Origin: Candidatus Spongiisociaceae bacterium
GTDB taxonomy: Bacteria > Actinomycetota > Acidimicrobiia > Spongiisociales > Spongiisociaceae
NCBI GenBank assembly: GCA_965262915.1
Contig: OZ253564.1
Location: 1,344,001-1,408,000, forward strand
Length of the DNA stretch: 64,000 nt
Direction of reading: 5' to 3'
The notes below the pieces were generated by a model. It ran no database searches. It saw only the letters and a list, made by a program, of their open reading frames with translations, and was not told where the DNA came from. A program made the position numbers and the translations under genes. Of this stretch, positions 12,951-58,528 are shown in pieces (positions within the stretch are counted from its first letter, which is position 1; each line of letters starts with the position of its first letter).

Positions 12951-14002
12951 GTACCGGCCTCGATGCCCGTGTGGTCGTGGAGCGGGAGGGTTTCGTCCTC
13001 GATGTCTCCCTGAGCATCCCGCCCGACCGGACAGTGGCGGTCCTCGGTCCGAACGGGGCGGGCAAGACCACTCTGGTGGAGGTCCTGGCGGGTCTGCTGG
13101 CGGTAGACCGAGGGTCGGTACGGTTGGGCGACCGGGTCTTGGACGACCCTGCCCACGGGGTCTTCCTCGGGCCCGCTGAGCGTCGCATCGGGGTGGTGTT
13201 CCAGGACGGGATGCTGTTTCCCCATCTCAGTGCACTGGAGAACATCGCCTTCGGGCTGCGCGCCACCGGTGTGCCCAAGTCCGAGGCCCGGAGAAGGGCG
13301 GCCGGATGGTTGGCGGCGGTGGGACTCTCCGATCTTGCCGAGCGCCGACCCGGAGCCATTTCAGGGGGGCAGGCACAACGCGTGGCCTTCGCCCGGGCGC
13401 TGGCAACCGACCCGGAGATGTTGCTGCTCGACGAGCCTTTCTCTGCGCTCGATATCACATCGAGGGTCGGGCTCCGCCGGATGCTGCGCGATCATCTGTC
13501 CGGCTACGCCGGACCCCGCCTGCTGATTACCCACGATCCCACCGAGGCTTTCCTGCTCGCCGATGAGATGGTCATCCTGGAGCGGGGATCCGTGGTCCAG
13601 ACCGGCGGAGCTGACGAGATCAGGCTCCGGCCCGCCAGCCGCTACGCCGCCGACCTGGCCGGGGTCAACCTGGTGGTCGGTACCGCCGCCGGGCGGGTTC
13701 TGACAGTGCAGGGGCACCGGCTGGCCATTGCCGAGGGGGTGGAAGGTCGGGTGATCGCCACCATCCATCCGCGGGCCATCTCGATCCACCTCGGTCCGCC
13801 CGGCGGTAGCCCCCGGAACTCCTGGAAGACGAGGATTCGCCACGTCGACCACCATGCCGACCGGGTTCGGATCCAGACCGGTCGGCCGCTACCCCTCACC
13901 GCCGAGGTGACCCCGGATGCTCAGTCTGCCCTCAGCCTCTTCCCCGGCGCTTCGGTCTGGCTGTCGATCAAAGCCACGGAGATACTGGTTGCTAGGTGCT
14001 AG
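12947..14002 (+). CDS. modC: Molybdate ABC transporter ATPase with TOBE domain
   Basis: GPNGAGKT, ISGGQAQR, LLLDEPF. GTG start overlaps the modB stop; the stop lies inside the heptamer repeat. Confidence 0.9.
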   Translation: MSTGLDARVVVEREGFVLDVSLSIPPDRTVAVLGPNGAGKTTLVEVLAGLLAVDRGSVRLGDRVLDDPAHGVFLGPAERRIGVVFQDGMLFPHLSALENIAFGLRATGVPKSEARRRAAGWLAAVGLSDLAERRPGAISGGQAQRVAFARALATDPEMLLLDEPFSALDITSRVGLRRMLRDHLSGYAGPRLLITHDPTEAFLLADEMVILERGSVVQTGGADEIRLRPASRYAADLAGVNLVVGTAAGRVLTVQGHRLAIAEGVEGRVIATIHPRAISIHLGPPGGSPRNSWKTRIRHVDHHADRVRIQTGRPLPLTAEVTPDAQSALSLFPGASVWLSIKATEILVARC

Positions 14003-14016
14003 GTGCTAGGTGCTAG
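13990..14016 (-). repeat. Tandem heptamer (TGCTAGG)x4, i.e. CTAGCAC on the minus strand
   Basis: tgctagg tgctagg tgctagg tgctag, directly visible; an inverted variant of the CTGRCAC repeat. Confidence 0.9.
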
Positions 14017-15759
14017 CCCCAATTCTTCATGGGGTTGGTGGTGGGGGTGGGTGGTTTGACACGGGAATGCCCTTCTGACCTGCGATTATGGGCGGTGAAG
14101 AAGTCGTCCATGGTCTCAGTCAGGAGGGCACCCGTATGGTGAAGGCTAACAGCAGTTTGAGGTTGAGGGTCGAGGTGGGGGGTGGCGGTCAGGTGGGTCA
14201 TGTGGGGTTGTGGCTGTTAGGCCGGTTCGCGGATCGTATGCGGGTGGGCGAGGTGCTGTCGGAAGCGTTCGGTGCTTCGGGTGTGGTTCATGATCGGGGC
14301 AGGTTGTTGGTTCATTTGATGCTGGTGTTGGCCGGGGGTGGGGAGGCTTGCACCGACATCGAGACGCTGCGTTCCCAGCGCCGATTGTTCGGCCCGGTGG
14401 CGTCGGACTCGACCCTGTACCGGACCCTCACCGGGGCTGATGAGGGATTGTTGGAGACCCTCGCCGGGGCGATGGTCACAGTCCGGGAACGGGTGTGGGC
14501 TGACTATCCGGCGGGCGAAACGGTGATCTTGGACATCGACTCGTCGGTTCATGAGGTGCATTCGGAGAACAAGCAGCACGCCGCGCCGACCTATAACCGC
14601 AAATACGGGTTCCATCCCCTCTATTGCTTTGGGGACTGGACCGGCGAACCCCTCGCTGCTCGGCTACGGCGAGGCGGCGCCGCGCCCAATCAGGTTTCGG
14701 ACCTGGTCGAGGTGCTGGACGCGGCGGTGGAGGCGCTGCCCAAACGGATGCGGGTGGGTCACTCGCCGGGTGACGACCCCGAGCGGGTGGTCTATCCGAT
14801 CCGGGTCCGGGCCGATTCCGCTGCGGGACCCGCGTTCGCTACCGAATGCCACAAACGTAACATCGGGTTCAGTTTCGTCGCTCGAAGATCCGACGGGATC
14901 GCCGAAGCCCTCAGCCACATTCCCCCAGACGACCCACGCTGGCAGCCCGCCCTTCCCCAACCCAGCCCACCCCAAAACAACAACAGAGGCAACCGGACCG
15001 AGATTGACAACCCCGACACCGCGCAGGCCGACGATCCAGAACCCCAGCGGGTTCGTGCCCATGTGATCGAACTCACCGACCACGTCAAAGCCTACAGATG
15101 GCCCAAAGGCCTCCGACTCGTCATCAGACGCGAACCCCGCCACCCCGGCGCGAAACGATCCCTGTTCGACTCCGACGGCTACCGCTACTGGGGACACTGG
15201 ACCGACCAAGCTCAGCCTGCCCCCGAATCCGACCGCGACATGCGCGCCCACGCCCGAGTCGAAACCCACATCGCCCGCGTCAAAGACCACGGCGGCAGCC
15301 GCTTCCCATTCACCAAATACGCTCCCAACCGGCTCTGGCTCCACATAGTCGCCCTCGCCGACACCCTCGTGCGCTGGTTCCAGAAACTCTCCCTACCCAA
15401 ACACCACCCCCTCACCCGAGCGAAGCCGAAAACACTGCGCCCGAACCTATGGCACATACCAGGCATCATCACCCGCCACAGCCGACAAACCACCCTCCGA
15501 ATACCGGTCACCTGGCCCACCGCCACCCTCATCGCAACCACCCACCAACAAATCCAAGCCCTCTAACCCTGAACCGAACCCCCAACACACCCCCCGAACC
15601 TCAACCCGACCACGCCCCGAACACCAACCCCACCCCCTACGAGCCCACCCCAACACACCCCACCATCCTCAGAACCGGCCAACCCGCCAACAACCACCCG
15701 AAGTACCCCACCCCAAAGCGCTCACACCCCCAAACCCGCCAACGCGTGAAGAATTGGGG
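14017..15759 (+). mobile_element. IS1380-family insertion sequence (copy 1)
   Basis: IR CCCCAATTCTTCA / TGAAGAATTGGGG; CTAG at 14013-14016 and 15760-15763. Confidence 0.92.
14136..15566 (+). CDS. IS1380-family transposase
   Basis: HDRGR, VASDSTLYR, ILDIDSS, YGFHPL, RADSA, RREPRHPGA, RAHARVE; RBS AGGAGG. Confidence 0.9.
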   Translation: MVKANSSLRLRVEVGGGGQVGHVGLWLLGRFADRMRVGEVLSEAFGASGVVHDRGRLLVHLMLVLAGGGEACTDIETLRSQRRLFGPVASDSTLYRTLTGADEGLLETLAGAMVTVRERVWADYPAGETVILDIDSSVHEVHSENKQHAAPTYNRKYGFHPLYCFGDWTGEPLAARLRRGGAAPNQVSDLVEVLDAAVEALPKRMRVGHSPGDDPERVVYPIRVRADSAAGPAFATECHKRNIGFSFVARRSDGIAEALSHIPPDDPRWQPALPQPSPPQNNNRGNRTEIDNPDTAQADDPEPQRVRAHVIELTDHVKAYRWPKGLRLVIRREPRHPGAKRSLFDSDGYRYWGHWTDQAQPAPESDRDMRAHARVETHIARVKDHGGSRFPFTKYAPNRLWLHIVALADTLVRWFQKLSLPKHHPLTRAKPKTLRPNLWHIPGIITRHSRQTTLRIPVTWPTATLIATTHQQIQAL

Positions 15760-15802
15760 CTAGTGATTAGTAGGATGTAACTCTATCTTACGTGGGTTTA
15801 AT

Positions 15803-15846
15803 CTGACACCTGACACCTGACACCTGACACCTGACACCTGACACCT
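15803..15846 (+). repeat. Tandem heptamer (CTGACAC)x6 plus CT, left part of an array interrupted by IS110
   Basis: Six perfect units; the array resumes in register at 17328. Confidence 0.95.
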
Positions 15847-15855
15847 AATGGGGGT

Positions 15856-16050
15856 CCACCACTTCTGCCGGTTTGTCTGGGAGGGTGTGGTGGTTGAGCT
15901 GGCCGGCCGGTGAGTACTGGTGGCACCCGGAACGCTGATTCCTAGTGTCAGATCGTACCCCGGCCGGTTCGCGAGGGCCGCTTGTAGCGCTCATGGGGTG
16001 GCGTGCCACAGAGCACTGATCCATTAGGTCGCCGCCAGGCGTTCTCCACA
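15856..16050 (+). ncRNA. IS110 bridge RNA (5' hairpin, target-binding loop, donor-binding loop)
   Basis: LTG TGGCACC 15921-15927, RTG GTGTCAG 15945-15951, LDG TGGGGTG 15994-16000, RDG CCATTAG 16021-16027. Each pair is separated by a short hairpin and closed by a stem. RNA ends approximate. Confidence 0.85.
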
Positions 16051-16086
16051 GCTCGGCAAGAATCGATCCGCACGAGGGAGGCGAAG

Positions 16087-17307
16087 ATGATTTTTGTGGG
16101 TAACGACTGGGCTGAGGGCCACCACGATGTGTATCTGCTGGACGAGGGTGGGACCCGGCTGGGGTTCGCCCGTATACCGGAAGGGATCCAAGGTATAGCC
16201 AGGTTCCACCAGATGGTCGCCGAGCACGCATCGGATGCGGCTGAGGTAGTGGTAGGCATCGAGACCGATCGTGGGCTGTGGGTCGGTGCGCTGGTCGCGG
16301 CGGGCTATGTGGTGTATGCGATCAACCCTAGGGCGGTGTCCCGCTACCGGGACCGTCACAGCCTGGGCGGAGCTAAATCAGACCGCGGTGATGCCAAGGT
16401 GTTAGCTGATCTGGTACGCACCGACCGTCACAACCACCGTCCCGTGGCCGGTGACAGCCCCGAATCGGAAGGTATCAAGATCGTGGCCAGAACGCATCAG
16501 AACCTGATCTGGGCGAGGGTGCGTCACACCAACCAGTTACGCAACGCCCTGCGCGAATACTATCCCGCAGCGCTGGAAACGTTCGCTGACCTGGCCCATT
16601 CCGACGCTGTGGCCGTACTGGGTCGGGCACCCACCCCCGCCCTTGGCGCCCGCCTGACACTGCCCCAGATCCGAGCTGCGCTCAAAAGGGGCGGACGGAA
16701 ACGCAACCTCGATCCGGTCGCCCGCAAAATACAGAAAGGCCTCCGAGCTGCTCACCTCGCCGCACCGGGGCCGGTTGAGGACGCCTTCGGAGCGACTGTC
16801 GGGGCACTGGTGAGCATCATTGGGGAGGCCAACCGCCAGATCAGCCAACTCGAAGCAACCCTGGAGACCCGTTTTGAGCAGCACCCGGACGCCGTGATCT
16901 ACCATTCCCAGCCAGGACTCGGTACTGTGCTCGGCGCCCGGGTGCTCGGTGAGTTCGGGGACGACCCCGACCGTTACACCGGGGCCAAGTCTCGCAGAAA
17001 CTACGCCGGAACGTCGCCCATCACAGTGGCGTCGGGCCGCAAACGTGCTGTCCTGGCCCGCCACGTCCGTAACCGGCGTCTCTACGACGCCTTGGACCAA
17101 TGGGCGTTCTGTTCCCTAACCCCAAGCCCAGGAGCCCGAGCGTTCTACGACCAGAAACGAGCAGCCGGCGACCTCCACCACCAAGCACTCCGAGCCCTAG
17201 CCAACCGACTCGTCGGCATCCTCCACGGCTGCCTCAAACACCGAACCCCCTACAACGAACACACCGCCTGGGCACACCGAACCCTCATCGACCGAGCCGC
17301 AGCTTGA
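16087..17307 (+). CDS. IS110-family DEDD recombinase
   Basis: VGNDWA, IETDRG, AINP, KSDRGDA (DEDD); GTSPITVASG with the candidate catalytic Ser; ALRALANRL. Confidence 0.95.
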   Translation: MIFVGNDWAEGHHDVYLLDEGGTRLGFARIPEGIQGIARFHQMVAEHASDAAEVVVGIETDRGLWVGALVAAGYVVYAINPRAVSRYRDRHSLGGAKSDRGDAKVLADLVRTDRHNHRPVAGDSPESEGIKIVARTHQNLIWARVRHTNQLRNALREYYPAALETFADLAHSDAVAVLGRAPTPALGARLTLPQIRAALKRGGRKRNLDPVARKIQKGLRAAHLAAPGPVEDAFGATVGALVSIIGEANRQISQLEATLETRFEQHPDAVIYHSQPGLGTVLGARVLGEFGDDPDRYTGAKSRRNYAGTSPITVASGRKRAVLARHVRNRRLYDALDQWAFCSLTPSPGARAFYDQKRAAGDLHHQALRALANRLVGILHGCLKHRTPYNEHTAWAHRTLIDRAAA

Positions 17308-17329
17308 CATTTACGCGCCTGGGGTGTCT
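17304..17329 (+). promoter_or_regulatory. -35 half of a circle-junction promoter
   Basis: TTGACA 17304-17309, a 17-nt spacer, then TCT joined to left-end AAT gives TCTAAT only after circularisation. Confidence 0.65.
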
Positions 17330-17342
17330 GACACCTGACACC
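17328..17342 (+). repeat. (CTGACAC)x2, right part of the interrupted array
   Basis: ctgacac ctgacac c. Confidence 0.9.
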
Positions 17343-17345
17343 GAC

Positions 17346-19466
17346 CTACCGGCCACCTCCGGCAGGCGGACTCAATCGACGAGCCCATGCCTGGAGGAGC
17401 CGGTCGAGGATCATGGCCAGAAGCACGATCGCCAGCCCGGCCGCGAAGCCCGACCCCACCGAGTCGCTCCGTCGCAAGCCGCGCACCGTCTCCAAGCCCA
17501 GACCCCCGCCCCCGACCAAGCCGGCGATCACCACCATGGCCAGCACCAGCATCACCGTCTGGTTGATCCCGGCGATGATGGTCGGCATGGCGAGGGGCAG
17601 TTGGATCTTGCGCAGGATCTGGCTCTGGGTGGCGCCGAAGGCACGGGCGGCCTCTGTCGCCTCCGCCGAGACCCGGCGGATTCCAAGGCTGGTCAACCGG
17701 GTGGCGGCGGGGAGCGCGTACAGGACCGAGGCGATTATGCCCGGGATCCTCCCCACGTTGAAGAGAATGATCACGGGAACCAGGATCACGAAGCTGGGGA
17801 TGGTCTGGAGGAAGTCCAGCACCGGCTTGAGCATGCGCTCGAACCGGTTGCTACGGGACGAGAGCACGCCCAGTGGGATCCCGAGGACGATCGCCAGGAT
17901 CACCGCCACTATCACCTGTGCCAGAGTGTCCATCGACAGGGTCCACATACCCAGCAGCCCGAGACCCAGGGCGCATGCTCCGGCGAGCGTAGCCAAGCCG
18001 GGGCCGCCGAACCACCATCCTGCCAGTATGACGGCGATCACCACCACCGGCCACGCCAGGGTGGAGCTGAAGAACTCCCGCAGAGGCGTCACCGCATAGA
18101 TGGTCACGAAGTCGCTGAACGGTCCGGTTCCGATCCACGTCTCGCCGATCTGGTACAGGTTCTTGCCGACCCAGTCGACCAGGCTGTCCACCGGAGCGGC
18201 GAAGGAGAATGTGACAGCCGAAGGGAACTCCGCTCCCTCACGGGTGGTGCCGAACACCACGGCAGCGAGCAGGAGTATTCCCCCCACCACCCGGCGCGGG
18301 TGGCGTTGGAGAGCCGTCTCCTCTCCGGTGCGTCTCGTCGTTCTCGCATCGGCCACCAGCGGATAGGAGACCATCCGCCCGGCTGCGCGGATGATCCGAT
18401 CAGCGCCCTCCAGAACCTCTTCGATCCGCCGGATCCACTGATTACCGAAGTAGCGGTCGGGGAAGATGCGCAGCCGTCCCTTCCCGGATCCGAGTCCGGC
18501 CGCACCGTGCATGAGCCGGTCCATGATGATGGCCAGCACCACTATGGCCAGACCGGCTTCGAGGGCGCGTCCCACGAACAGCCTCCGAAGGGATTCGAGG
18601 ACCACCTGGCCGAGTCCCCCGGCACCGATCAGCGCGGCGATCACGACGATGCTGAGCGCCATCATGATCGTCTGGTTGATACCCGTGAGGATGGTCGGCA
18701 TGGCTTGGGGTAGCTGGACCTTGCGCAGGATCTGGCCCGGGGTAGCTCCGAACATCTCGGCCGCTTCCACCGTCGAGGATTCCACCGAGCGGATTCCCAA
18801 CGTCGTCAAACGGATCACGGGCGGGAGTGCGTAGATCACCGTGGCGATGATGGCCGGAACCCGGGCGATCCCGAACAGGAGCACCACCGGGATCAGATAG
18901 ACGAAGGCCGGAAGGGTCTGCATGGCGTCGAGTAGTGGCCTCAGAGCGCGCTCCACGCGCTCCCGCCGGGCCGCCCATATCGCCAAGGGGATACCGATGG
19001 CGACCGAGATGACGACTGCTACTCCCATCAGGGCAAGGGTCTGGACGCTCTCCTCCCAGAGCCCTACCGACCCGAAGTACATGACGCCCGCCGCGGTGAG
19101 GATCCCCCCCTTGAACCCGAGGATGGACGTGGCCACCATTCCTGTGGCCATCACGATGACGAACCACGGCAGCCAGAGGAGAGCGGCTTCGACCCACCGG
19201 AGGCTGTAGTCGATCGCGTCACTGATCGGATTGAGCACCACCAGGAAGAGCCCGTGGGTTGTCTGGTTGCTGATCACCCAGCGGCGCGCCTGGTTGATCC
19301 ACTCGGCCAGCGGGATTCTCCACTCCTCCGGGAAGGGGCCTACCGTGTTCAGCGAGAGTCCCAGCGTCACCAGAGCCGCCAAGGCCACCAGAAGGAGCCC
19401 GCCGGTCCTGATCCGGCGGCGGCGGTCGAGGTCGAGCCGGGTCTCGACCGCCGCCGCGATGCTCAT
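17346..19466 (-). CDS. proW: Glycine betaine/proline-type ABC permease with two fused permease domains
   Basis: Two repeats of LD.MQT.P.FV.L.PV...F, EAA..FGAT..QIL.K.QLP.A.PTI..GINQT. Confidence 0.85.
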   Translation of the reverse strand: MSIAAAVETRLDLDRRRRIRTGGLLLVALAALVTLGLSLNTVGPFPEEWRIPLAEWINQARRWVISNQTTHGLFLVVLNPISDAIDYSLRWVEAALLWLPWFVIVMATGMVATSILGFKGGILTAAGVMYFGSVGLWEESVQTLALMGVAVVISVAIGIPLAIWAARRERVERALRPLLDAMQTLPAFVYLIPVVLLFGIARVPAIIATVIYALPPVIRLTTLGIRSVESSTVEAAEMFGATPGQILRKVQLPQAMPTILTGINQTIMMALSIVVIAALIGAGGLGQVVLESLRRLFVGRALEAGLAIVVLAIIMDRLMHGAAGLGSGKGRLRIFPDRYFGNQWIRRIEEVLEGADRIIRAAGRMVSYPLVADARTTRRTGEETALQRHPRRVVGGILLLAAVVFGTTREGAEFPSAVTFSFAAPVDSLVDWVGKNLYQIGETWIGTGPFSDFVTIYAVTPLREFFSSTLAWPVVVIAVILAGWWFGGPGLATLAGACALGLGLLGMWTLSMDTLAQVIVAVILAIVLGIPLGVLSSRSNRFERMLKPVLDFLQTIPSFVILVPVIILFNVGRIPGIIASVLYALPAATRLTSLGIRRVSAEATEAARAFGATQSQILRKIQLPLAMPTIIAGINQTVMLVLAMVVIAGLVGGGGLGLETVRGLRRSDSVGSGFAAGLAIVLLAMILDRLLQAWARRLSPPAGGGR

Positions 19467-58114: not shown

Positions 58115-58276
58115 GGCCGCCTGCCCCGCGTATCCCCGACCACCAGCGAGACTCCACGGGGATCAGTGGCCGGCAGCGACCCGGACGGCTCCAGGTTCTT
58201 CGTGCCTATGTCCGGTGGGTTGTCAAGAGCGTGGAGCGTGGACAGCCGCCGATGCTTCCCTTCCATATACAGTTAT

Positions 58277-58311
58277 CAGTTAGGGATATCGAGTAACGAT
58301 ATCCCTAACTG
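58277..58311. repeat. Perfect 15-bp inverted repeat heading the heptamer array
   Basis: CAGTTAGGGATATCG-AGTAA-CGATATCCCTAACTG. Confidence 0.9.
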
Positions 58312-58528
58312 GCACCTGGCACCTGGCACCTGGCACCTGGCACCTGGACCTGGCACCTGGCACCTGGCACCTGGCACCTGATCCCTGATCCCTGGCACCT
58401 GATCCCTGGCACCTGACCCCTGGCACCTGGCACCTGGCACCTGGCACCTGGCACCTGGCACCTGGCACCTGGCACCTGGCACCTGACCCCTGGCACCTGG
58501 CACCTGGCACCTGGCACCTGGCACCTGA
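58309..58528 (+). repeat. Tandem heptamer array (CTGGCAC), about 31 units, with CTGATCC/CTGACCC variants
   Basis: Directly visible; ends about 5 nt before the mfd ATG. Confidence 0.97.

What the first reader, a model, noticed from the sequence alone, without database searches (positions are those of the whole stretch)
15920..15951. Target guides can read both CTGACAC and CTGGCAC by wobble
Seen: the left guide carries G at the variable position (TGGCACC: perfect for the G-type repeat, G:T wobble for the A-type). The right guide carries U (GUGUCAG: perfect for the A-type, U:G wobble for the G-type). Inference: the guide pair covers the whole CTGRCAC family, so the array at 58309-58528 is a predicted unoccupied target. 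Cross-array recombination could also expand, contract or rearrange arrays.
Basis: inference. Interest (0 to 1): 0.75.

Follow-up and report, generated by a model that had tools for sequence, protein, structure and literature searches.

The report
IS110 bridge-RNA guides reading heptamer repeats
The flagged 32 bases are the target-reading loop of the guide RNA of a jumping gene (IS110 family) that inserts into 7-base tandem repeats; its left guide tolerates the A/G repeat variants, but its right guide appears to tell them apart.

Summary
TGGCACC (15921-15927) and GTGTCAG (15945-15951) lie in the 5' leader of an intact IS110-family element (15847-17327). The element sits in a CTGACAC array and is bounded by the CT core. 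The two motifs are the left (LTG) and right (RTG) target guides of its bridge RNA.

The genome holds 11 full copies, and their guides co-vary with their flanks.

Guide G at position -4 lies opposite an A-type left flank (rG.dT wobble) in 6 of 7 heptamer-reading copies. Across 31 insertions in the genus, -4 is not Watson-Crick in 15. The wild-type IS621 complex has a G.T pair at the same position.

The RTG half is not supported:
- The RTG varies (GUGUCAG, GUGCCAG, GUGCUAG) and matches its right flank perfectly in 7 of 7 copies.
- All 4 U-type copies sit at A-type right halves, although only 93 of 328 free sites are A-type (p about 0.006).
- No wobble was seen at RTG +2 in 26 insertions.

The array at 58309-58528 has 19 perfect sites for the C-type sister lineage. 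For this copy it is not a supported target.

This is an ordinary member of a known system with an unusual microsatellite target.

The parts
15803..15846 (+). Left flank: CTGACAC x6 plus the CT core copy (15845-15846). LT -6..-1 is TGACAC.
15847..17327 (+). IS110-family insertion sequence, 1481 bp, copy 1 of 11 full copies in the genome
15856..15893 (+). 5' stem-loop of the bridge RNA (alignment A1 columns 10-47)
15902..15968 (+). Target-binding loop: outer stem 15902-15917 / 15955-15968, internal loop carrying the guides, inner hairpin 15929-15942
   Evidence: consensus structure; one search shows variation confined to the guide columns
15921..15928 (+). Left target guide UGGCAC plus core positions CC. 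Position -4 is G15923. [quoted passage not shown]
   Evidence: strand rule from PMC11208160
15945..15951 (+). Right target guide GUGUC plus AG (core complement). Position +2 is U15948. [quoted passage not shown]
15952..15953 (+). Candidate handshake guide of the target loop (AU). The A can pair with donor position 7 (T17327) and not with target position 7 (C).
   Evidence: Read against the rule in PMC11208158; inference
15994..16002 (+). Left donor guide UGGGGUGGC, sense to the right-end sequence TGGGGTGT-CT
   Evidence: Read; inference
16021..16029 (+). Right donor guide CCAUUAG (complement of CT-AATGG at the left end) plus candidate handshake GU (complement of target AC)
   Evidence: Read; inference
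16087..17307 (+). Recombinase gene, 406 aa, intact
17304..17309 (+). TTGACA in the right end. In a circle junction it would lie 17 nt upstream of TCTAAT (T17327 + CT core + AAT 15847-15849).
   Evidence: Counted; inference, not tested
17328..17342 (+). Right flank: CT core plus GACAC, CTGACAC x2.1
58309..58528 (+). Unoccupied CTGGCAC-type array: 19 perfect sites for the C-type RTG lineage and 0 A-type right halves

Best explanation
[quoted passage not shown] The element inserted at a CT core between two units of a CTGACAC microsatellite.

[quoted passage not shown] A second loop reads the element's own joined ends.

The left guide keeps G at position -4 in every heptamer-reading copy. It accepts both GACAC (rG.dT) and GGCAC (G-C) left halves, because -4 is a soft position of this interface. 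The right guide is read strictly. Three sister lineages differ there by one or two bases (U, C, CUAG), and each is found only at the repeat variant it matches by Watson-Crick pairing.

Hence this copy is expected to insert at X|A junctions of CTGRCAC arrays. Pure G-type arrays, such as 58309-58528, are targets of the C-type lineage.

Shown: the anatomy, the guide-flank co-variation, and the natural pairing profile. Inferred: the strictness of the right guide (small sample), action of each copy's own RNA in cis, the junction promoter, and the handshake pairs.
For: Family membership:
- Pfam DEDD_Tnp_IS110 scores 115.6 bits and Transposase_20 scores 36.3 bits.
- NCBIfam NF033542, 'IS110 family RNA-guided transposase', scores 181.7 bits against a cut-off of 140.
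- The only PDB sequence match is the IS621 transposase, E 1.3e-7.

Copies and co-variation:
- The genome holds 11 full copies at 84-100% identity, each bounded by CT.
- Copies 1-4 have RTG GTGTCAG and right flank CTGACAC.
- Copies 6 and 7 have GTGCCAG and CTGGCAC.
- Copy 5 has GTGCTAG and CTAGCAC.
- Copies 8-10 and 11 have unrelated guides that match unrelated flanks.
- Relatives in 5 further genus genomes behave the same way.
- In alignment A1 (23 distinct leaders) the scaffold is conserved and variation sits in the guide columns. The consensus fold leaves the guides in an internal loop.

LTG position -4:
- It is wobble in 6 of 7 heptamer-reading copies.
- Over 31 insertions it is 16 Watson-Crick, 11 wobble and 4 mismatch. 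Positions -5, -3, -2 and -1 are Watson-Crick in 29-30 of 31.

RTG positions +1..+4:
- They are Watson-Crick in 22-25 of 26 insertions. At +2 the figure is 25 of 26, with 0 wobble.
- Free sites are 93 right-A against 235 right-G. P(4 of 4 at right-A without discrimination) is 0.0065 by sites and 0.021 by arrays. The permutation p for 7 of 7 concordance is 0.0095.

Literature:
- The strand rule and low mismatch tolerance come from passages and section 8 of PMC11208160.
- The IS621 wild-type complex has a non-canonical G53:tT11* pair in LTG-LT. By the residue ranges given, that is -4 (passages of PMC11208158).
- In ISPpu10 the LTG is tolerant distally, and the RTG is stringent except for one G.T wobble (section 8 of bioRxiv 10.64898/2026.03.19.712850).
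Against: - The sample is small: 4 U-type insertions from one lineage, 3 of which now have broken reading frames.
- Site availability at the time of insertion is unknown, and arrays may have expanded since.
- A reduced but non-zero rU.dG activity cannot be excluded. ISPpu10 tolerates one RTG wobble, though an rG.dT one.
- Four true mismatches at LTG -4 suggest the position may simply not be read. In that case 'wobble' may be incidental.
- The free RNA of heptamer readers is predicted to pair LTG with RTG. That could affect activity in ways not assessed here.
- No RNA, circle junction or transposition was observed.
- No Rfam family matched the leader.
Confidence: 0.7

Rival explanations
1. One reading: both guides use wobble, so this copy's bridge RNA inserts efficiently into A-type and G-type arrays alike, and 58309-58528 is its unoccupied target.
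For: - The chemistry allows it. G and U are the two RNA bases that can read both members of an R/Y pair.
- LTG wobble is demonstrably used.
- One RTG wobble is tolerated in ISPpu10.
- With only four U-type insertions, a moderate preference cannot be told apart from exclusion.
Against: - 0 of 4 U-type copies lie at G-type right halves, although these are 72% of free sites.
- Dedicated C-type and CUAG-type RTG lineages exist, and each matches its flank.
- There is 0 wobble at RTG +2 in 26 insertions.
- The ISPpu10 RTG was stringent at nearly every position in saturation mutagenesis.
Confidence: 0.2
2. The G and U are kept because they face each other in an intramolecular helix that closes the target loop (G15923.U15948). 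On this reading they tune self-inhibition of the RNA rather than target breadth.
For: The target loop of copy 1 folds with LTG UGGCAC paired to RTG GUGUCA, including this G.U pair. Its energy is -36.2 kcal/mol, against -27 for relatives with non-tandem targets. The full leader fold shows the same helix.
Against: - Self-complementarity follows automatically from a tandem-repeat target, so it needs no selection.
- Copies 6 and 7 have a perfect G-C at that pair and have also transposed.
- The consensus fold of the family leaves the guides unpaired.
- In solved IS621 complexes the loop is held open by protein (passages of PMC11208158).
Confidence: 0.08
3. LTG position -4 is not read at all in this IS group, so the G is a frozen ancestral base. 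On this reading the apparent wobble contributes nothing to recognition.
For: - -4 is not Watson-Crick in 15 of 31 insertions, including 4 true mismatches (rC.dA and rG.dA) from other guide families.
- All heptamer lineages share the same G, whatever their target type.
- The ISPpu10 LTG has positions that tolerate every substitution.
Against: - Wobbles (11) outnumber true mismatches (4) at -4.
- Some mismatched cases sit in copies with otherwise poor or chimeric flanks, such as L026 and L064.
- IS621 forms an ordered non-canonical G.T pair at this position.
Confidence: 0.3

Closest known systems
IS621 (E. coli) bridge recombinase and bridge RNA (Durrant et al. 2024, PMC11208160; Hiraizumi et al. 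2024, PMC11208158)
   Same: - DEDD plus Tnp recombinase.
- 5' leader with a stem-loop, a target-binding loop and a donor-binding loop.
- LTG pairs with the bottom strand and RTG with the top strand.
- CT core.
- Two-base candidates for handshake guides 3' of RTG and RDG.
- A -35 box in the right end.
- A natural rG.dT pair at LTG position -4.
   Different: - The protein is only distantly related: the PDB match has E 1.3e-7 over the C-terminal domain only, and the protein is 406 aa against 328 in the solved chain.
- The target is a 7-bp microsatellite, not a REP element, so LTG and RTG are mutually complementary.
- The second core position of the LTG is mismatched in 17 of 31 insertions. IS621 prefers pairing to both core bases.
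- The RTG here reads the core plus 5 nt.
ISPpu10 (Pseudomonas putida), bioRxiv 10.64898/2026.03.19.712850
   Same: It is an IS110 element that targets a repeated genomic sequence. It has a natural wobble in the LTG-LT duplex. Its interfaces are asymmetric: the LTG is tolerant away from the core, and the RTG is stringent.
   Different: ISPpu10 also uses a target-encoded stem-loop, and no such feature was looked for here. Its tolerated RTG wobble is rG.dT at position 3, whereas the case at issue here is rU.dG at +2. Its evidence is experimental, and the evidence here is comparative only.
IS1111-type elements with seekRNA (Siddiquee et al. 2024, PMC11187229; search listing and abstract only)
   Same: RNA-guided DEDD transposases of the same superfamily, with sequence-specific targets.
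   Different: As I recall, and not from the abstract, the IS1111 guide RNA lies 3' of the gene. The abstract says this group has subterminal inverted repeats. Here the non-coding region is the 240-nt 5' leader. No inverted-repeat search of the ends was run.

Membership tests
IS110 family (IS110 subgroup) RNA-guided insertion sequence | N-terminal DEDD (RuvC-like) transposase domain | tested here: met
   PF01548: 115.6 bits, cut-off 29, residues 4-160
IS110 family (IS110 subgroup) RNA-guided insertion sequence | C-terminal Tnp domain (Transposase_20) | tested here: met
   PF02371: 36.3 bits, cut-off 21.3, residues 274-354. IS621 chain 8wt6_A matches residues 269-390, E 1.3e-7.
IS110 family (IS110 subgroup) RNA-guided insertion sequence | Curated whole-protein model | tested here: met
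   NF033542 transpos_IS110: 181.7 bits, cut-off 140
IS110 family (IS110 subgroup) RNA-guided insertion sequence | Insertion at a conserved CT core that is present at both junctions | tested here: met
   All 11 full copies have CT before AATG(G/T)GGG. 10 of 11 have CT directly after the ...GGGGTGT right end. Copy 11 has an aberrant right junction.
IS110 family (IS110 subgroup) RNA-guided insertion sequence | Long non-coding leader 5' of the recombinase gene | tested here: met
   The 240-nt leader is 15847-16086, and the ATG is at 16087.
Bridge RNA | Internal loop whose 5' side is sense to the left target and whose 3' side is antisense to the right target, co-varying with the flanks | tested here: met
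   Searches cover 31 insertions and at least 6 guide families.
Bridge RNA | Second loop complementary to the element's own ends (LDG/RDG) | tested here: met
   Read. UGGGGUG is sense to the right-end TGGGGTG. CCAUUAG is antisense to CT-AATGG. Four of the 23 aligned leaders carry an RDG allele (CUGCUAG) that does not match their own left end.
Bridge RNA | Handshake guides that pair with the non-cognate DNA after strand exchange | tested here: inconclusive
   GU after the RDG is complementary to the target AC, and C at target position 7 is invariant. The A after the RTG is complementary to donor T7. This was read by eye only, and the second base does not pair.
Bridge RNA | Promoter rebuilt at the circle junction | tested here: inconclusive
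   TTGACA at 17304-17309 would lie 17 nt upstream of TCTAAT across the junction. This was counted. No scan of a joined sequence was made and no RNA data were available.
Bridge RNA | Match to a curated RNA family | tested here: not met
   An Rfam 15 scan of 15000-18000 at E up to 1 gave no hit in the leader. Whether Rfam holds a bridge-RNA model that would cover this group was not checked.
Bridge RNA | RNA-dependent recombination activity, circular intermediate | not testable with these tools

The most novel reading that the evidence does not exclude
Three things may hold together.
1. LTG position -4 may be a structurally conserved blind spot of IS110 synaptic complexes. The evidence is a G.T pair in E. 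coli IS621 and non-Watson-Crick pairing in 15 of 31 insertions in this Acidimicrobiia-like group.
2. Single-base RTG switches (U, C, CUAG) may have split one IS into lineages that partition the alleles of a lineage-specific heptanucleotide microsatellite family.
3. That microsatellite family may have expanded together with the IS in this one genome (205 three-unit hits against 0-8 in 28 family genomes). If so, the arrays and the IS would co-evolve, possibly with the IS contributing to array turnover.
Probability: 0.2. Interest if true: 0.6.

Novelty: new member of a known kind. Interest (0 to 1): 0.35.

Why it matters
Bridge recombinases are being developed as genome editors, so the rules of guide-target tolerance matter for off-target prediction. 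This genome offers a natural allelic series. One scaffold carries three right-guide alleles and one left guide, and they are spread over repeat variants that differ by single bases.

The series suggests that the right guide discriminates A from G two bases from the core. The left guide ignores the same difference four bases from the core, which is the position where IS621 carries a natural G.T pair. That agrees with recent mutagenesis of ISPpu10 and extends it to a distant lineage and to a microsatellite target.

It does not reveal a new mechanism.

Tried and rejected
- **Rfam scan of 15000-18000.** There was no hit in the leader. The only family above its gathering score was Ms_AS-4, antisense inside the recombinase gene.
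- **Single-sequence fold of the leader.** The z-score was -0.71, so it was not informative on its own. It pairs LTG with RTG, which the family consensus does not.
- **Compensatory changes.** Only 2 of 66 predicted pairs show double changes, because the copies are close relatives. The loop architecture therefore rests on conservation and on guide-flank co-variation, not on stem co-variation.
- **More heptamer-reading copies elsewhere.**
  - Exact-pattern scans of metagenome contigs and genome contigs with the loop sequence found nothing.
  - A looser LTG-scaffold pattern found 2 places in one genome record titled as a Candidatus Spongiisociaceae MAG. It found none in metagenomes.
  - A pattern search of 29 family genomes found the GGCACC loop only in G000 (7 places) and G006 (2 places, with a different RTG).
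No population evidence on polymorphic insertions, empty sites or circle junctions was obtained.
- **Considered and rejected: arrays as parts of one composite repeat.** The 22-nt centre between divergent arrays has only 5 copies.
- **Considered and rejected: a flank-derived promoter in the A-type array.** Counting, no -35-like hexamer lies 16-18 nt upstream of CCTAAT.
- **Mis-parsed right ends.** Two rows of the table (L011, and L077 from G006) have right ends mis-placed by my pattern, and they supply most RTG 'mismatches'. They were left in the counts as printed.
- **Literature searches.** 'Bridge RNA' + IS110 + wobble returned 3 papers. IS110 + tandem repeat / insertion site / heptanucleotide returned nothing on microsatellite targets. 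These two searches are the only basis for saying I found no report of a heptamer-microsatellite IS110 target.
- **Supplements.** Supplementary files of the papers were not opened. The per-position mismatch tables of PMC11208160 may bear on wobble tolerance.
- **First hand-in.** The report was sent again with that field added and nothing else changed.

Full report
**Observation**

TGGCACC lies at 15921-15927 and GTGTCAG at 15945-15951, 17 nt apart. The combined pattern occurs once in the window and in none of 100 shuffles. A CTGACAC array (6.3 units, 15803-15846) lies to the left. A short CTGACAC run (17328-17342) lies 1.48 kb to the right. A CTGGCAC-type array of 31 units lies at 58309-58527.

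**What the element is**

The stretch between the two CTGACAC runs (15847-17327) is an IS110-family insertion sequence.
- It encodes a 406-aa protein (16087-17307).
- Pfam gives DEDD_Tnp_IS110 at 115.6 bits and Transposase_20 at 36.3 bits.
- NCBIfam NF033542, 'IS110 family RNA-guided transposase', gives 181.7 bits against a cut-off of 140.
- The only sequence match among solved structures is the IS621 transposase, E 1.3e-7.

The window's genome is a single 5.06-Mb contig. It holds 11 full-length copies at 84-100% identity, plus remnants. All 11 begin AATG(G/T)GGG directly after a CT. Ten of the 11 end ...GGGGTGT directly before a CT. This is the CT core arrangement described for IS621 (PMC11208160, passages and section 8). 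The reading frame is intact in copies 1, 5, 6, 7, 8, 9 and 10 and broken in copies 2, 3, 4 and 11.

**Anatomy of the leader**

I aligned 23 distinct leaders from this genome and five others of the genus (A1). The scaffold is nearly invariant. Variation is concentrated in two short blocks, columns 72-82 and 98-103, with smaller variation in the second loop.

The consensus fold gives the following:
- a 5' stem-loop at 15856-15893;
- an internal loop closed by an outer stem (15902-15917 / 15955-15968) and an inner hairpin (15929-15942), with the two variable blocks unpaired on either side;
- a second loop of the same design.

This is the layout of the IS621 bridge RNA. The stems show little compensatory change, with 2 of 66 pairs doubly changed, because the copies are close relatives.

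By direct reading:
- The second loop carries UGGGGUG, sense to the right-end TGGGGTG, at 15994-16000.
- It also carries CCAUUAG, antisense to CT-AATGG at the left end, at 16021-16027. The second loop therefore reads the joined ends.
- The GU that follows the right donor guide is complementary to the AC left of the target core.
- The A that follows the right target guide is complementary to the T left of the donor core. This fits the handshake rule of PMC11208158.
- TTGACA at 17304-17309 would lie 17 nt upstream of TCTAAT in a circle junction.

These last points are inferences from reading, not tests.

**Guides co-vary with flanks**

| Copies | Left flank | LTG | RTG | Right flank |
|---|---|---|---|---|
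| 1-4 (lineage A, 95-98% alike) | ..GACAC-CT | (U/C)GGCAC | GUGUCAG | CTGACAC |
| 6, 7 (lineage G, 99% alike, 91% to copy 1) | see below | UGGCAC | GUGCCAG | CTGGCAC |
| 5 | ..GACAC-CT | UGGCAC | GUGCUAG | CTAGCAC |
| 8-10 | AGGCTC-CT | AGGCUC | CUGAUAG | CTATCA |
| 11 | ATGCTC-CT | AUGCUC | AACAUAG | CTATGG |

- Copies from G001, G003, G006 and G007 carry further guide pairs that match their own flanks.
- The LTG is sense to the left flank and the RTG is antisense to the right flank. This is the strand rule of PMC11208160.

**The left guide and the A/G position**

All seven heptamer-reading copies keep G at LTG -4 (15923 in copy 1).
- The left flank has A there in copies 1, 2, 3, 4, 5 and 7. 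That gives rG.dT on the bottom strand.
- It has G in copy 6 and in the remnant at L017.

So the same guide has served both repeat types.

Over 31 insertions of the wider group, -4 is Watson-Crick in 16, wobble in 11 and a true mismatch in 4. The wobbles are rG.dT in the heptamer readers and in L030 (G006), and rU.dG in a CCACUCUCC guide family. Positions -5, -3, -2 and -1 are Watson-Crick in 29-30 of 31. These insertions are not independent, but at least three guide families contribute non-standard pairs at -4.

The IS621 wild-type complex has a non-canonical pair G53:tT11*. With LTG A50-U58 pairing to tT14-tA6, and tA6/tG7 being the core complement, G53 is also at -4 (PMC11208158 passages). 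A preprint on ISPpu10 reports a natural U.G wobble in LTG-LT and tolerance of LTG positions away from the core.

The left-guide half of the finding is therefore right, but it has precedent. It may reflect a generally soft position rather than wobble as such.

**The right guide and the A/G position**

Here the data go the other way. The RTG base facing the variable position (+2) is U in lineage A, C in lineage G, and part of CUAG in copy 5. It is Watson-Crick paired to the right flank in 7 of 7 copies.

The genome has 328 unoccupied G[AG]CAC-CT-G[AG]CAC sites. Of these, 93 have an A-type right half and 235 a G-type right half. By arrays the counts are 33 and 54.
- If U read both types equally, all four lineage-A insertions landing at A-type right halves has probability 0.0065 by sites, or 0.021 by arrays.
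- Full concordance of 7 of 7 has permutation probability 0.0095.

Two insertions show the preference at close range.
- Copy 7 (C-type) sits at an A|G junction in a mixed array.
- Copy 4 (U-type) sits at an A|A site in an array that also has G-type units.

In the wider set, RTG +2 is Watson-Crick in 25 of 26 insertions with no wobble. The one exception comes from one of the two rows whose right end my pattern mis-placed, L011 or L077.

Saturation mutagenesis of ISPpu10 found the RTG stringent at nearly every position. The one tolerated change made an rG.dT wobble. IS621 screens reported low mismatch tolerance overall.

The sample is small, three of the four lineage-A copies are now defective, and past site availability is unknown. 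A weak rU.dG activity is therefore not excluded. Even so, the evidence favours discrimination by the right guide.

The 7 of 7 concordance also suggests that each copy is inserted by its own RNA. The donor ends of the lineages are nearly identical, so a sister lineage's RNA could otherwise act on them. This is an inference.

**The G-type array in the window**

The stretch 58309-58528 contains 19 perfect TGGCAC-CT-GGCAC sites and no A-type right half. It is a predicted free target for lineage G, whose copies 6 and 7 have intact genes. Copy 6 does occupy a 22-unit G-type array elsewhere. For the copy in this window, the array would require rU.dG at +2, for which I found no natural example.

**Self-complementary guides**

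Because the target is a tandem repeat, the LTG and RTG of the heptamer readers are complementary to each other. In isolation, the target loop of copy 1 folds shut at -36.2 kcal/mol. G15923 pairs with U15948 in that fold. The loops of relatives with non-repeat targets fold at -27 kcal/mol. This is a direct consequence of the target type. Lineage G has a perfect helix there and has still transposed. I therefore rate the idea that G and U are kept for this helix as unlikely.

**Array rearrangement**

I found no evidence that the guides drive array-to-array recombination. A legend in the IS622 preprint states that TBL-TBL tetramers are destabilised. The half-match preprint documents donor-side half-match events and does not mention target-target recombination (abstract and passages). 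One copy in G001 (L027) has flanks that belong to two different guide families. That is compatible with recombination between IS copies.

**Context**

Three-unit CTGRCAC runs number 205 in this genome. They number 4, 8 and 5 in three genus relatives and 0 in the other 25 family genomes. Heptamer-reading loops were found only in this genome. The one public record outside it that holds the GGCACC guide scaffold is titled as a Candidatus Spongiisociaceae MAG, class Acidimicrobiia.

**Limits**

Paper supplements were not opened.

**Verdict**

This is a standard IS110 bridge-RNA system with an unusual microsatellite target and an informative natural series of guide alleles.

Noticed in passing
Alignment A1 columns 146-148 and 178-181 (window 15992-15994 and 16022-16025); copies at L003, L009, L010, L011, L044, L039: The donor-binding loop has alleles. 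The right donor guide is CCAUUAG in most copies. It is CUGCUAG in copies 3, 10 and 11 and in L044, and CGGUUAG in L039. The left ends of these copies still begin AATGGGGG, so the variant guide no longer matches its own end. The left donor guide also has a CAU/GAG alternative. The same 3-nt changes recur in separate lineages, which suggests exchange between copies.
   Followed up: partly
G000:C1:290128-291612 (copy 11, locus L011): The right junction is aberrant. The usual ...GGGGTGT-CT is replaced by ...GGGG-ATGCTC-CT, so ATGCTCCT stands at both junctions of this copy. Its reading frame is also broken (stop after 344 aa).
   Followed up: no
window 16908-16989, minus strand: Rfam Ms_AS-4 (Actinobacteria sRNA) matches at 89 bits, antisense inside the recombinase gene. 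It probably reflects conservation of the IS110 gene in the family's seed rather than a separate RNA.
   Followed up: no
whole genome G000 versus 28 family genomes: CTNNCAC heptamer arrays form 89 clusters in this genome. In perfect runs the unit counts are CTGGCAC 280, CTGACAC 119, CTAGCAC 17 and CTAACAC 17. They are rare or absent in relatives (205 three-unit hits against 0-8). Many arrays occur as divergent pairs, a minus-strand array followed by a plus-strand array 50-300 bp away.
   Followed up: partly
G000:C1:131668, 739292, 744066, 2089971, 2093311: A conserved 22-nt centre (TACTTGATGATCGTCAACAGCA-like) lies between divergent heptamer arrays at 5 places. Two of them are next to IS copies 4 and 7. 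A separate repeat of about 75 nt lies, in opposite orientations, next to the left flanks of copies 3 and 5.
   Followed up: partly
G000:C1:4420451-4421935 and 3638544-3640028 (copies 8 and 9): The printed flanks of these two copies are identical over 90 nt on the left and nearly so (about 2 differences in 90 nt) on the right. They therefore sit in a larger duplicated unit and may not be independent insertions. Copy 10 and a G003 copy (L025) share a related left flank.
   Followed up: no
window 13990-14016 and 14030-15760: A TGCTAGG x3.9 array (the reverse complement of the CTAGCAC type) lies 1.8 kb upstream in inverted orientation. Between it and the IS lies a long C/A-rich low-complexity tract (CCCCAACC-like) with a 492-aa open frame (14088-15566).
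   Followed up: no
L027 (G001:C180): This copy's left flank fits the AUGCUC guide family and its right flank fits the CUGAUAG family. Its own guides match neither fully. It looks like a product of recombination between two IS copies.
   Followed up: no
window 58262-58308: A palindrome (TTAGGGATATCG..CGATATCCCTAA) lies directly upstream of the G-type array.
   Followed up: no
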